Assembly: GCA_963722075.1 (NCBI GenBank)
Contig: CAVRJM010000001.1
Coordinates: forward strand, 1,300,690 to 1,364,689
From: Candidatus Babeliales bacterium
GTDB lineage: Bacteria > Babelota > Babeliae > Babelales > JANWKD01
Direction: 5' to 3'
DNA length: 64,000 nt
This document shows positions 60,851 through 61,207 of the stretch, piece after piece (the first letter of the stretch is position 1; each line of letters begins with the position of its first letter). Below the pieces are notes generated by a model. It was given only the letters and a program-made list of their open reading frames with translations. It made no database searches and was not told the DNA's origin. The translations under genes were made by a program, and so were the position numbers.

Positions 60851-61207
60851 GTCGTTGCGAGCTTGCGAAGCAATCCAGGTTATAATAATTAGATAAGAAA
60901 CATATGAAACGCCCTGCTGTTTATTCTTTATGGCAAATAAAAAAAATGGAACCCTTTACACCTGAGTAACAGGAAATATAATTCAGCGAATTTTTCAACA
61001 TAAAAATAATAAAGTCGAATTTACTAGCAAATATAATTGTAAAATGCTTGAGTATGTTGAATTTTTTGGTGAAATGCAAACTGCTGTTATGCAAGAAAAA
61101 CAAATAAAGGCTGGCTCTCGTTCAAAAAAGCTAATACTTATTGAATCGGCAAATCCAATGAGAGATTTGTAAATTGCCTGGATTGCTTCGACAAGCTCGC
61201 AACGACA
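60851..61207. mobile_element. Candidate repeat-flanked nuclease cassette: inverted family-A repeats around a GIY-YIG pseudogene
   Basis: GTCGTTGCGAGCTTGCGAAGCAATCCAGG (60851-60879) and CCTGGATTGCTTCGACAAGCTCGCAACGACA (61177-61207) are near-perfect inverted repeats; mobility is inferred. Confidence 0.6.
60904..61172 (+). pseudogene. Small stand-alone GIY-YIG nuclease pseudogene (not in ORF track)
   Basis: Manual translation MKRPAVY/fs/MANKKNGTLYT*VTGNIIQRIFQHKNNKVEFTSKYNCKMLEYVEFFGEMQTAVMQEKQIKAGSRSKKLILIESANPMRDL*; frameshift near 60925-60929, TGA at 60963 in place of the motif Gly. Confidence 0.88.

What the first reader, a model, noticed from the sequence alone, without database searches (positions are those of the whole stretch)
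60851..61207. GIY-YIG nuclease relic bracketed by the genome's dispersed palindrome: a RAYT/REP-like system with a different enzyme
Seen: a ~90-codon decayed GIY-YIG gene (AVY..NGTLYT[G]VT..QR..QH..FTSKY..EKQIK..NP.RDL) absent from the ORF track. It sits 24 bp after one family-A repeat and 4 bp before an inverted, near-identical copy. The same tail-to-tail orientation, with only a 28-60 bp AT-rich spacer, recurs at 8974, 24455, 24563, 28288 and 43126. Known: REP/REPIN repeats flank and are spread by HUH-type RAYT transposases. Inference: here a small GIY-YIG nickase may be the mobilising enzyme, and the empty doublets may be its non-autonomous derivatives. I know of no demonstrated mechanism of this kind but cannot search the literature.
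Basis: partly seen in the sequence, partly recalled or inferred. Interest (0 to 1): 0.85.

Follow-up and report, generated by a model that had tools for sequence, protein, structure and literature searches.

The report
Decayed Ssn nuclease gene between hairpin repeats
This is a broken copy of a small single-strand-DNA-cutting nuclease gene sitting between two inverted copies of the hairpin repeat that such nucleases recognise, a pairing that was described and tested in other bacteria in 2025, so the locus is a new example rather than a new kind of system.

Summary
Window 60904-61172 (+) is a GIY-YIG pseudogene (Pfam E 6.9e-8). It is broken by a +2 frameshift and an in-frame TGA, and lies 24 bp after and 4 bp before inverted copies of a dispersed hairpin repeat.

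The genome holds two more copies of the gene, one apparently intact, each with the same arms. It also holds at least 234 such GTC-tagged hairpins, against 0 in a reversed-genome control. Nearly all neighbouring hairpins are in inverted orientation.

Relatives of the protein in many phyla carry the same hairpin beside the gene, about ten-fold enriched. Within this phylum, hairpin-rich genomes and close homologues coincide.

The idea is already in print. The repeats are the "CGTC-tagged REPs" of Di Nocera 2013, then said to lack a transposase. Chenal 2025 showed that this GIY-YIG family (Ssn) binds such hairpins as single-stranded DNA and cuts just upstream, and raised the IS-like/RAYT-like hypothesis.

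Mobilisation by the nuclease remains unproven. My additions are:
- the gene-plus-arms unit is missing from two syntenic sites in a sister species;
- the two-tier hairpin found here is not caught by the published search pattern;
- ten stem classes coexist with one intact gene.

Verdict: new member of a known kind, moderate interest.

The parts
60846..60879 (+). Left arm: GTC-tagged hairpin repeat, stem class GTTGC (core 60851-60877), pointing into the gene
   Evidence: matched by covariance model R1 at G000:C1:1361537-1361569
60904..61172 (+). Decayed ssn-type GIY-YIG gene: ATG 60904, +2 frameshift at 60925-60929, in-frame TGA 60963-60965, stop TAA 61170-61172
61177..61211 (-). Right arm: inverted copy of the same hairpin repeat (core 61179-61206)
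60734..60833 (-). Probable split hairpin of another stem class (GTCAC...GTGAT). A second, unrelated GC-rich repeat of about 85 nt is nested in its loop. It lies head-to-head with the left arm across a 17-bp spacer.
   Evidence: read directly; the same kind of nesting is seen at G000:C1:104871 and 167845; not tested further
24455..24653 (.). Cluster of four hairpins (+ - + -): two gene-less tail-to-tail doublets joined head-to-head
8974..9060 (.). Gene-less tail-to-tail doublet
28288..28405 (.). Gene-less tail-to-tail doublet, both arms of the TTGC stem type
43126..43291 (.). Tail-to-tail doublet plus a third hairpin. 43123-43253 folds as one long DNA hairpin (-34.1 kcal/mol, z -8.6).

Best explanation
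The locus is a dead copy of an Ssn-type nuclease gene. Ssn proteins are single-domain GIY-YIG enzymes of about 95 aa that cut single-stranded DNA at specific sites. The gene still sits in its usual cassette: hairpin repeat, gene, inverted hairpin repeat.

The repeats belong to the CGTC/TGTC-tagged REP superfamily. Each has an unpaired GTC tag, a stem whose two sides co-vary, and a C/CCAG tail that gives the repeat an orientation.

By analogy with the tested homologues, the one apparently intact copy in this genome (G000:C1:1398408-1398695) should bind the hairpin only when the DNA is single-stranded. It should then hydrolyse the strand a few nucleotides 5' of the GTC tag.

Shown here: the cassette, the family of at least 234 extragenic hairpins arranged as inverted dimers, structural covariation, co-occurrence of gene and repeats across genomes, and gain or loss of the cassette as a block between sister species.

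Inferred: that this protein cuts these particular hairpins, and that this activity contributes to the spread or upkeep of the repeats and of the cassette. Hydrolysis alone does not explain reinsertion.
For: Gene identity:
- Pfam GIY-YIG E 6.9e-8 for the window copy, 3.6e-16 for the intact copy and 1.2e-8 for the third copy.
- The intact copy keeps Y7, Y18, G20, R28, H32, E64 and N83, which are invariant or at least 90% conserved in 49 aligned proteins (47 homologues plus this genome's two open copies).
- The AF2 model has pLDDT 95.3. Its best PDB folds are UPF0213 1zg2, Slx1 and the UvrC N-terminal domain.

Cassette: 3 of 3 copies in the genome have the same arms in the same places.

Repeat family in this genome:
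- A structural scan gives 234 hits against 0 in the reversed genome, with at least 11 stem classes of 3 or more copies, all complementary.
- 213 of 233 lie outside ORFs of 100 aa or more.
- 87 of 90 neighbouring pairs within 400 bp are inverted.

Across phyla (80 loci from 154 relatives):
- Hairpin density is 6.67 per kb within 150 bp of the gene against 0.68 per kb elsewhere, from 295 hits against 28 in the control.
- 61 of 80 loci have at least one nearby hairpin and 45 of 80 have one on both sides.
- The inner helix was not used to pick the sequences. It shows double-sided changes at 6 of 6 pairs. The whole structure is 88.5% paired against 70.8% in shuffles.

Co-occurrence in one 151-genome sample of the phylum:
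- 12 genomes are hairpin-positive with model R1.
- All 8 genomes whose best protein E-value is 1e-27 or lower are among them.
- Only 4 of the other 143 are positive.

Block gain or loss: in G003 against G004 (flanks 73-83% identical), two syntenic spacers measure 585 against 99 bp and 579 against 127 bp, with the cassette only in G003.

Link to the published family: homologues at 54-57% identity (P0020, P0042) carry the translation of the canonical NTS hairpin in their miscalled N-termini. The enzymology of homologues is in PMC11893778, sections 8 and 10.
Against: - No Neisseria SsnA sequence or cd10448 profile was available, so membership of the Ssn family rests on indirect links.
- The published SRM search pattern, as I turned it into a regular expression, matches 0 of the 234 hairpins and hits only 5 of the 80 homologue loci.
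- The family-A arm is not a stable hairpin by nearest-neighbour energies (z -0.18).
- With a stricter scan, the nearest hairpin is not consistently oriented: upstream 34 '+' and 22 '-', downstream 32 '+' and 29 '-'. The '+/-' bracket is the commonest arrangement (24 of 80) but not the rule.
- 15 genomes carry more distant homologues (E 1e-12 to 1e-25) without R1 hairpins. Two hairpin-rich genomes, G006 and G117, have no small GIY-YIG gene.
- Kin are not independent, so the co-occurrence counts overstate the case.
- No target-site duplication and no clean empty site at base resolution was seen.
Confidence: 0.85

Rival explanations
1. REP/RAYT-like replicator in the strong sense. The GIY-YIG nuclease is the dedicated enzyme that multiplies the CGTC-tagged hairpin dimers. 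The hairpin-gene-hairpin cassette is a minimal autonomous (or domesticated) element. The gene-less dimers and the 200-260 bp doublets with the same arms are its non-autonomous passengers.
For: - Sharp unit ends at GTC...GAC.
- 87 of 90 neighbouring hairpins are inverted.
- Homogeneous tail-to-tail dimers share conserved spacers of about 30 bp.
- A MITE-like family has the same arms and a shared 170-bp interior.
- The genome holds 3 dispersed cassettes, one dead and one with Y18D/G20R, a decay pattern typical of selfish genes.
- The cassette is present or absent at syntenic sites, and in one case sits in a neighbouring spacer.
- The hairpin tail type (CCA or CTC) follows the protein clade, 19 changes against 40.1 in shuffles (0 of 200), with phyla mixed inside clades.
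- Di Nocera 2013 found no transposase for CGTC REPs.
Against: - GIY-YIG enzymes hydrolyse DNA; no joining activity is known (recalled).
- The published enzyme cuts only one strand orientation of the motif. With inverted arms, each strand of a cassette therefore gets one cut at its own 5' border, not the two cuts on one strand that single-strand 'peel and paste' needs (inference).
- No target-site duplication was seen.
- Doublet interiors are unrelated to the gene.
- The tree is a quick one with weak support, and kin share labels.
- Ten stem classes coexist with one intact gene, although Neisseria SsnA is reported to need the stem sequence and not only its shape.
Confidence: 0.3
2. Host-serving single-strand DNA restriction or regulation. 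The nuclease acts on incoming or exposed ssDNA that carries the hairpins, as shown for transformation in Neisseria. The repeats spread by other means, such as recombination or replication slippage. The gene is flanked by them for autoregulation or by hitch-hiking.
For: This is the only biological role demonstrated in print: NTS-flanked transforming DNA is restricted by SsnA (abstract; Discussion). Hairpins are extragenic and densest between convergent genes, 49 per 28.6 kb against 43 per 53.2 kb between divergent ones, as for REPs with RNA-level roles.
Against: - It does not explain why the gene is bracketed by the repeat in so many phyla.
- It does not explain why cassettes are multi-copy and decaying.
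- It does not explain why the cassette comes and goes as a block.
- Whether this small-genome organism is naturally transformable is unknown.
Confidence: 0.3
3. Homing-endonuclease-like selfish gene. The repeats are the target, not the cargo. The nuclease cuts gene-less dimers, and repair from a filled dimer copies the gene in.
For: - The gene always sits inside a tail-to-tail dimer.
- Gene-less dimers of the same stem class exist (window 28288/28378; G000:C1:24914).
- There is a cycle of intact, crippled and dead copies.
- The gene persists only where repeats exist: 8 of 8 close homologues lie in hairpin-positive genomes.
Against: - Arms of about 35-80 bp are short homology for repair.
- The enzyme family cuts ssDNA only and does not cut dsDNA.
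- The same hairpin sequence beside the gene in distant phyla suggests that repeat and gene travel together.
- Spacers of gene-less dimers do not obviously match the gene's flanks.
Confidence: 0.1

Closest known systems
Ssn nucleases with NTS/SRM hairpin repeats (Chenal et al., Nat Commun 2025, PMC11893778)
   Same: - A single-domain GIY-YIG protein of about 95 aa, with the two Tyr and E64 conserved.
- The gene is flanked on one or both sides by oriented hairpin repeats with a CGTC tag and a C/CYRG tail.
- Repeat-rich genomes carry the gene.
- The family is spread over many phyla.
- My counts (61 of 80 loci with a nearby hairpin, 45 of 80 on both sides) are close to their 71% and 42%.
   Different: - The window copy is a pseudogene.
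- The hairpin is two-tiered: a 5-bp outer stem, a GA(G)/CGAA internal loop and a variable inner stem-loop. The NTS has one continuous 8-bp stem.
- The published search pattern does not match it.
- The host appears to belong to a small-genome, single-order phylum that the main text does not mention ('Dependentiae' 0 hits). Naming the phylum is my guess.
- No biochemistry exists for this clade.
CGTC-tagged REPs (Di Nocera, De Gregorio, Rocco, BMC Genomics 2013, PMC3733652)
   Same: - A terminal CGTC/TGTC tag.
- A stem mostly starting with A-T pairs.
- A CCA tail.
- Extragenic location.
- Neighbours in opposite orientation.
- Several families within one genome.
   Different: - They describe stems of 8-9 bp with loops of 4-5 nt. 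Here the stem is interrupted.
- They find head-to-head dimers predominant and tail-to-tail rare. Here the counts are 36 head-to-head and 51 tail-to-tail.
- They found no associated enzyme gene.
REP/REPIN-RAYT systems (Nunvar 2010, recalled; Bertels and Rainey 2011, seen only in the listing)
   Same: - Tagged extragenic hairpins.
- Inverted dimers as the repeated unit.
- The enzyme gene is flanked by its own repeats.
- The enzyme acts on single-stranded hairpins.
   Different: - The enzyme is a HUH/Y1 transposase that forms a covalent intermediate and can rejoin DNA. Here it is a hydrolytic GIY-YIG nuclease.
- The tag is GTAG there and (C/T)GTC here.
- RAYTs are said to be single-copy and vertically inherited (abstract). 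Here there are 1-5 copies per genome and a protein tree that mixes phyla.
UPF0213/YhbQ and Slx1 GIY-YIG nucleases
   Same: Same minimal GIY-YIG fold. They are the best structural matches (1zg2 E 9.7e-4; Slx1 4xlg, 7cq3, 6sei).
   Different: Only about 28% and 18-24% identity. The sequence match to 1zg2 is weak (E 0.0048). No repeat association is known to me for these (recalled).

Membership tests
GIY-YIG nuclease superfamily (Pfam PF01541) | Profile match above the curated cut-off | tested here: met
   Window copy 33.1 bits (cut-off 22.6). Intact copy 59.7 bits and third copy 35.6 bits.
GIY-YIG nuclease superfamily (Pfam PF01541) | Catalytic residues (Tyr of GIY, Tyr and Gly of YIG, Arg, Glu, Asn) in an open frame | tested here: not met
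   Window copy: a +2 frameshift lies between the two Tyr motifs and a TGA replaces the Gly codon. Third copy: Y18D and G20R. Only the copy at G000:C1:1398408-1398695 has all of them.
GIY-YIG nuclease superfamily (Pfam PF01541) | Three-stranded sheet packed by helices; fold like solved members | tested here: met
   AF2 model of the intact copy has pLDDT 95.3. Foldseek top hits are 1zg2, Slx1 and UvrC-N.
Ssn family (cd10448; PMC11893778) | Single-domain protein of about 94 aa | tested here: met
   96-aa ORFs in L001 and L002; one Pfam domain covering residues 5-75.
Ssn family (cd10448; PMC11893778) | Homology to N. meningitidis SsnA (their criterion E < 1e-10) or a cd10448 assignment | not testable with these tools
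   No CDD library and no SsnA sequence at hand. Indirect link: P0020 (57% identity, E 1.2e-22) and P0042 (54%, E 2.3e-21) carry the translated canonical NTS in their N-terminal extensions.
Ssn family (cd10448; PMC11893778) | Gene flanked by oriented hairpin repeats | tested here: met
   3 of 3 copies in G000; 61 of 80 homologue loci.
Ssn family (cd10448; PMC11893778) | Binds the hairpin as ssDNA only and cuts a few nucleotides upstream | not testable with these tools
   Needs purified protein.
SRM/NTS motif (PMC11893778) | Match to the published degenerate search pattern | tested here: not met
   0 of 234 hairpins. There are 2 matches genome-wide against 1 in the reversed control, and 5 of 80 homologue loci match. 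This is my own regular expression; their scripts, figures and supplements were not seen.
SRM/NTS motif (PMC11893778) | Unpaired 5' GTC tag, hairpin, C immediately after the palindrome, C-Y-R-G-like tail | tested here: met
   Consensus of 78 family-A arms found by BLAST alone. Arms found without any motif assumption in other phyla. In alignment A1 these columns are invariant, but my scan required them.
CGTC-tagged REPs (PMC3733652) | CGTC/TGTC tag, CCA tail, extragenic, neighbours inverted | tested here: met
CGTC-tagged REPs (PMC3733652) | Continuous stem of 8-9 bp with a loop of 4-5 nt; head-to-head dimers predominant | tested here: inconclusive
   Here the outer stem is 5 bp, followed by an internal loop and an inner stem. 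There are 36 head-to-head and 51 tail-to-tail pairs. Their Figure 2 was not seen.
REP/RAYT (REPIN) systems | HUH/Y1 (IS200-like) transposase; GTAG tag | tested here: not met
   GIY-YIG is the only significant Pfam match; the other listed hit, CBM9_2, is below its cut-off at E 0.072. The tag is GTC. It works like one but is not a member.
Classical TIR insertion sequence | Terminal inverted repeats plus target-site duplication plus a strand-transfer transposase | tested here: not met
   TIRs are present, about 35 bp here and about 75 bp in G003. No duplication was seen at 24 short dimers. No transposase domain was found.

The most novel reading that the evidence does not exclude
The Ssn nuclease is the long-missing mobilising enzyme of CGTC-tagged REPs, and hairpin-ssn-hairpin is a roughly 400-600 bp minimal mobile cassette that moves without a classical transposase. 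In this clade it recognises a two-tier hairpin through its tag, internal loop and tail rather than its stem sequence. That would let one enzyme serve ten co-varying stem classes.
Probability: 0.25. Interest if true: 0.7.

Novelty: new member of a known kind. Interest (0 to 1): 0.35.

Why it matters
That validates the scan but removes most of the surprise. Three things remain useful.

1. A large, cross-phylum Ssn clade pairs with a hairpin architecture that the published search pattern misses. Surveys built on that pattern would undercount Ssn-repeat pairs, and this clade may offer new single-strand cutting specificities.

2. The presence/absence of whole cassettes between sister species, together with MITE-like doublets sharing the arms, is comparative evidence bearing on the IS-like hypothesis. 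Di Nocera 2013 left open which enzyme, if any, moves CGTC REPs, and the main text of the 2025 paper does not test it.

3. This genome holds ten stem classes and one intact gene. That makes it a compact natural test of whether recognition depends on stem sequence.

Tried and rejected
- Rfam (E up to 1) on 12 loci: no family covers the hairpin. The only hits were TwoAYGGAY in L017 and a weak tmRNA fragment.
- NCBIfam: no family.
- Literature searches that found nothing relevant: GIY-YIG + REP + RAYT, the 11-nt motif, COG2827/YhbQ/UPF0213, GIY-YIG + miniature inverted-repeat and GIY-YIG + REPIN (where 'Repin' is an author name). The relevant papers surfaced only with RAYT + REPIN + flanked and CGTC + GIY-YIG. 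A search for Ssn follow-ups found only the original paper.
- Sequencing runs: no RNA holder is listed. There are only low-depth soil and peat metagenome contigs. Laying them gave one joint, 60821 to 61178 with 29 other letters between, in one contig. This most likely comes from another repeat locus, so it gives no usable evidence on excision.
- Homodimer prediction: no verdict.
- Synteny with the same-genus genome G001: only 66% DNA identity and the gene order is broken at this site, so no empty-site comparison was possible.
- Deletion-derivative idea: interiors of the long doublets show no significant similarity to the gene.
- Target-site duplications: none seen.
- The exact-stem pattern search in relatives found the TTGC stem only in G000, G021 and G038. 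This undercounted hairpins until the covariance model was used.
- A fuzzy-regex scan timed out.
- The careful tree did not finish, so a quick tree was used.
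Full report
**1. The observation**

The sequence and its three frames show a small gene on the + strand.
- The ATG is at 60904-60906 (MKRPAVY).
- Five bases at 60925-60929 stand where the intact paralogues have three. This +2 frameshift moves the reading to the frame that runs 60930-61169.
- That frame has an in-frame TGA at 60963-60965, at the place of the Gly codon of the Y-x-G motif.
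- The stop is TAA 61170-61172.

Read through with X at the stop, the 91 codons match Pfam GIY-YIG at E 6.9e-8 (33.1 bits, cut-off 22.6). NCBIfam has nothing.

The gene lies 24 bp after an arm at 60846-60879 and 4 bp before its inverted copy at 61177-61211. The 29-nt arm occurs 3 times in the window at up to 3 mismatches, against 0 in 100 shuffles.

**2. The genome**

The window is G000:C1:1300690-1364689 in a 1.47-Mb, 34.7% GC assembly of four contigs.

A tblastn search finds three copies of the gene.
- The window copy is broken.
- The copy at C1:1398408-1398695 is an open 96-aa frame with all conserved residues.
- The copy at C1:140112-140399 is an open 96-aa frame in which the second catalytic Tyr and the following Gly are replaced (Y18D, G20R).

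All three copies have the same arm about 24-38 bp before the ATG and its inverse 4-8 bp after the stop.

BLAST with the arm alone gives 92 hits of 28 bits or more. Of 26 neighbouring pairs under 600 bp, 25 are '+ then -', 1 is '++' and none is '- then +'.

**3. The repeat is a tagged hairpin family**

Comparing arms showed a common plan:
- a GTC tag;
- a 5-nt stem;
- GA(G);
- a variable inner stem-loop;
- CG(A/T)(A/G);
- the complementary 5 nt;
- a CCA(G) tail.

A scan for that plan gives 234 hits in the genome and 0 in the reversed genome. The stem classes are GTTGC 82, ATCCT 42, ATTCT 33, ATCCC 17, ATTCC 11, ATCAC 10, GTCCC 10, ATTGC 8, GTCAC 7, ATCTT 5 and ATGGC 3. The two sides of the stem therefore co-vary within one genome.

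- 213 of the 233 hairpins on contig 1 lie outside ORFs of 100 aa or more, in a genome that is 86.7% coding by that rough call.
- Of 90 neighbouring pairs within 400 bp, 36 are head-to-head (gap mode 14-21 bp), 51 are tail-to-tail (modes 19-36 bp and 98-300 bp) and 3 are in the same orientation.
- Short tail-to-tail dimers of the ATTCT/ATCCT classes share a conserved AT-rich spacer. Some head-to-head dimers share a spacer too.
- Units end sharply at GTC...GAC, and I saw no target-site duplication.
- Long doublets with family-A arms include a MITE-like set with a common interior of about 170 bp. That interior is unrelated to the gene.

A caveat applies. The family-A arm folded alone is weak (-3.4 kcal/mol, z -0.18), and the family hairpin is not its minimum-energy fold. 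Other classes and other genomes fold as drawn, with z of -2.1, -4.0 and -4.3. A same-stem dimer folds as one long hairpin with z -8.6.

**4. Other genomes**

The intact protein has 154 confirmed relatives in one-genome-per-species contigs. The best 80 loci (50-69% identity) come from Pseudomonadota, Nitrospinota, Bacteroidota, Cyanobacteriota, Planctomycetota, Actinomycetota, Elusimicrobiota, Parcubacteria and others.

A local inverted-repeat search with no motif assumption already returned the same CGTC-A/G-TTGC-GAG...CGAA-GCAA-TCCAG arms beside the gene in many of them.

A looser structural scan gave the following.
- 295 hits against 28 in the reversed control.
- 6.67 hairpins per kb within 150 bp of the gene against 0.68 per kb elsewhere.
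- 61 of 80 loci with at least one nearby hairpin, and 45 of 80 with one on both sides.
- The '+ upstream, - downstream' bracket is the commonest arrangement, in 24 of 80 loci.

With the stricter scan the nearest hairpin is '+' in 34 and '-' in 22 loci upstream, and '+' in 32 and '-' in 29 downstream. The bracket is therefore frequent, not universal.

The stricter scan found 183 distinct hairpins in the 80 loci. I aligned 136 hairpins, 121 of those plus 15 from the window. On that alignment the drawn structure is 88.5% paired against 70.8% in shuffles and 23-55% when slid. The outer helix was a selection criterion, so it proves nothing. The inner helix was not, and it has double-sided changes at 6 of 6 pairs. 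Rfam has no family for it.

**5. Does the repeat track the gene?**

I built a covariance model (R1) and searched one sample of 151 genomes of the window's phylum. All of these are in one order and measure 0.8-1.9 Mb. I suspect Dependentiae, but that name is a guess from memory and no call gives it.

- Twelve genomes have hairpins at E up to 0.001.
- The protein is found at E up to 1e-12 in 25 genomes.
- All 8 genomes with a best E of 1e-27 or lower are hairpin-positive.
- Of the other 143, four are positive: G021 and G159 with more distant homologues, and G006 and G117 with none.
- In family f19 the three hairpin-positive genomes of 55 are exactly the three with a close homologue.
- 15 genomes have only more distant homologues and no R1 hairpins.
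- G006 and G117 have a GIY-YIG match only inside ORFs of 446 and 584 aa.

Kin are not independent, so I give no p-value.

**6. Gain and loss**

G003 and G004 belong to the same genus, and their flanks are 73-83% identical. They differ at cassette sites.
- At two G003 cassettes, the syntenic G004 spacer is 99 bp against 585 bp, and 127 bp against 579 bp. The second G004 spacer holds a single hairpin of another stem class.
- At a third site G004 has an unrelated 480 bp.
- At a fourth the cassette sits in a neighbouring spacer.

One G003 cassette has inverted ends of about 75 bp, made of the hairpin plus about 40 bp outside it. Another lies between two head-to-head dimers that share a 16-bp spacer. 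Divergence is too high to read exact junctions.

**7. The protein**

- The family is large: 2279 representatives at E up to 1e-10 and 9411 at E up to 1e-3.
- Many gene calls carry N-terminal extensions that are translations of the upstream hairpin. In P0020 and P0042 this includes the canonical Neisseria-type hairpin.
- In 49 aligned sequences H32, E52, E64, K68 and R72 are invariant. Y7, Y18, G20, R28 and N83 are at least 90% conserved.
- The AF2 model is confident (pLDDT 95.3). Its best PDB matches are UPF0213 1zg2, Slx1 and the UvrC N-terminal domain.
- By sequence only 1zg2 is found, at E 0.0048.
- A quick tree of the 80 proteins splits into a clade whose hairpins mostly end in CTC and one whose hairpins mostly end in CCA. 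Each clade mixes phyla. The labels need 19 changes against 40.1 in shuffles (0 of 200). Support is weak and kin share labels.

**8. What is known**

My first five literature searches found nothing. Two later ones did.

Di Nocera et al. 2013 (PMC3733652; abstract and sections 6 and 16 read):
- It defines CGTC-tagged REPs by the tag CGTC or TGTC, a stem starting with A-T pairs, a CCA tail and mostly head-to-head dimers, in five phyla.
- The family includes Neisseria dRS3 and Rickettsia RPE-4 and RPE-6.
- It states that these repeats 'apparently lack a dedicated transposase'.

Chenal et al. 2025 (PMC11893778; abstract and sections 6, 7, 8, 10, 12 and 17 read):
- It found that a 94-aa GIY-YIG gene, ssnA (cd10448), is the gene most often flanked by such hairpins. 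71% of homologues have at least one nearby, 42% have them on both sides, and 81% of genomes with over 200 motifs carry the gene.
- It showed that SsnA from four species binds the hairpin as single-stranded DNA only, in one orientation, and cuts a few nucleotides upstream.
- Y6A, Y17A and E64A abolish cutting.
- The three bases before the palindrome matter for cutting, and the C after it matters for binding.
- In N. meningitidis the enzyme restricts transforming DNA.
- The Discussion notes that NTS-ssnA-NTS looks like an insertion sequence and raises a RAYT/REP-like domestication scenario.

In the main text 'excision' has 0 hits and 'transposition' occurs only in the reference list. A search for follow-up papers found only the original. 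Figures are not held and supplements were closed. They may list this hairpin class or this phylum.

**9. Where this locus differs**

The published degenerate search pattern, as I coded it, matches 2 places in G000 (1 in the reversed control) and none of the 234 hairpins. It hits 5 of the 80 homologue loci, and 3 of those 5 (L038, L057, L064) are loci where my own scan had found nothing near the gene. The clade around this protein therefore uses a two-tier hairpin in place of the continuous 8-bp stem.

A second point is unexplained. The paper reports that changing the stem sequence while keeping the shape abolishes Neisseria SsnA activity. Yet this genome keeps ten stem classes with one intact gene, whose own arms are all of the GTTGC class.

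**10. Verdict**

The locus is a decayed member of the published Ssn/hairpin-repeat system.

Its stronger claim, that the nuclease multiplies the repeats, remains a hypothesis. In favour are the cassette polymorphism, the dimer organisation, the decay pattern and the co-occurrence. Against it are the hydrolytic chemistry, the one-cut-per-strand geometry that follows from the published orientation specificity (my inference) and the absence of target-site duplications.

I give 0.85 to the identification and about 0.3 to mobilisation.

Noticed in passing
window 53600-58500: Three tandem paralogous genes, about 2.2-2.45 kb apart (68-76% DNA identity over the repeated blocks). At least the second and third start with signal-peptide-like N-termini.
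   Followed up: no
window 60734-60833; G000:C1:104871-104931 and 167845-167907: A second GC-rich repeat is nested inside the loop of GTC-tagged hairpins, always just after the GCGA/GAG of the 5' half. This suggests that the hairpin loop is itself an insertion target.
   Followed up: no
outer flanks of family-A arms, e.g. window 60710-60717 and 61243-61250; G000:C1:337658, 1201120: About 35 nt outside many family-A arms lies a conserved ACTCAAAG box. It is often paired with an upstream TTGAGT to form another AT-rich inverted repeat. The repeated unit is therefore larger than the hairpin.
   Followed up: partly
G006:C1:112356-113061 and 54175-54399; G117, many contigs: Two genomes of the phylum are rich in R1 hairpins but have no small GIY-YIG gene. 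In G006 the hairpins stand in same-strand arrays about 200 bp apart, unlike the inverted dimers of G000.
   Followed up: partly
L046, L052, L054, L063 (Okeania and related cyanobacteria): The ssn homologue sits inside long same-orientation arrays of hairpins spaced about 150-190 bp, rather than between inverted arms.
   Followed up: no
L017:1233-1390 (-): A TwoAYGGAY RNA match (45.2 bits, gathering score 43) lies about 110 bp upstream of an ssn homologue in a gammaproteobacterial MAG.
   Followed up: no
L089-L092 (G003): Three of the four G003 cassettes examined are flanked by different stem classes: an ATTGC-like stem, ATTCT on both sides, and ATTCC with ATTAC. The fourth (L090) was not examined. 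This hints at paralogue-specific hairpin partners within one genome.
   Followed up: partly
P0001, P0025, P0042, P0030 and other representatives: Many database gene calls for this family are extended at the N- or C-terminus by translated hairpins. This is a systematic annotation artefact.
   Followed up: partly
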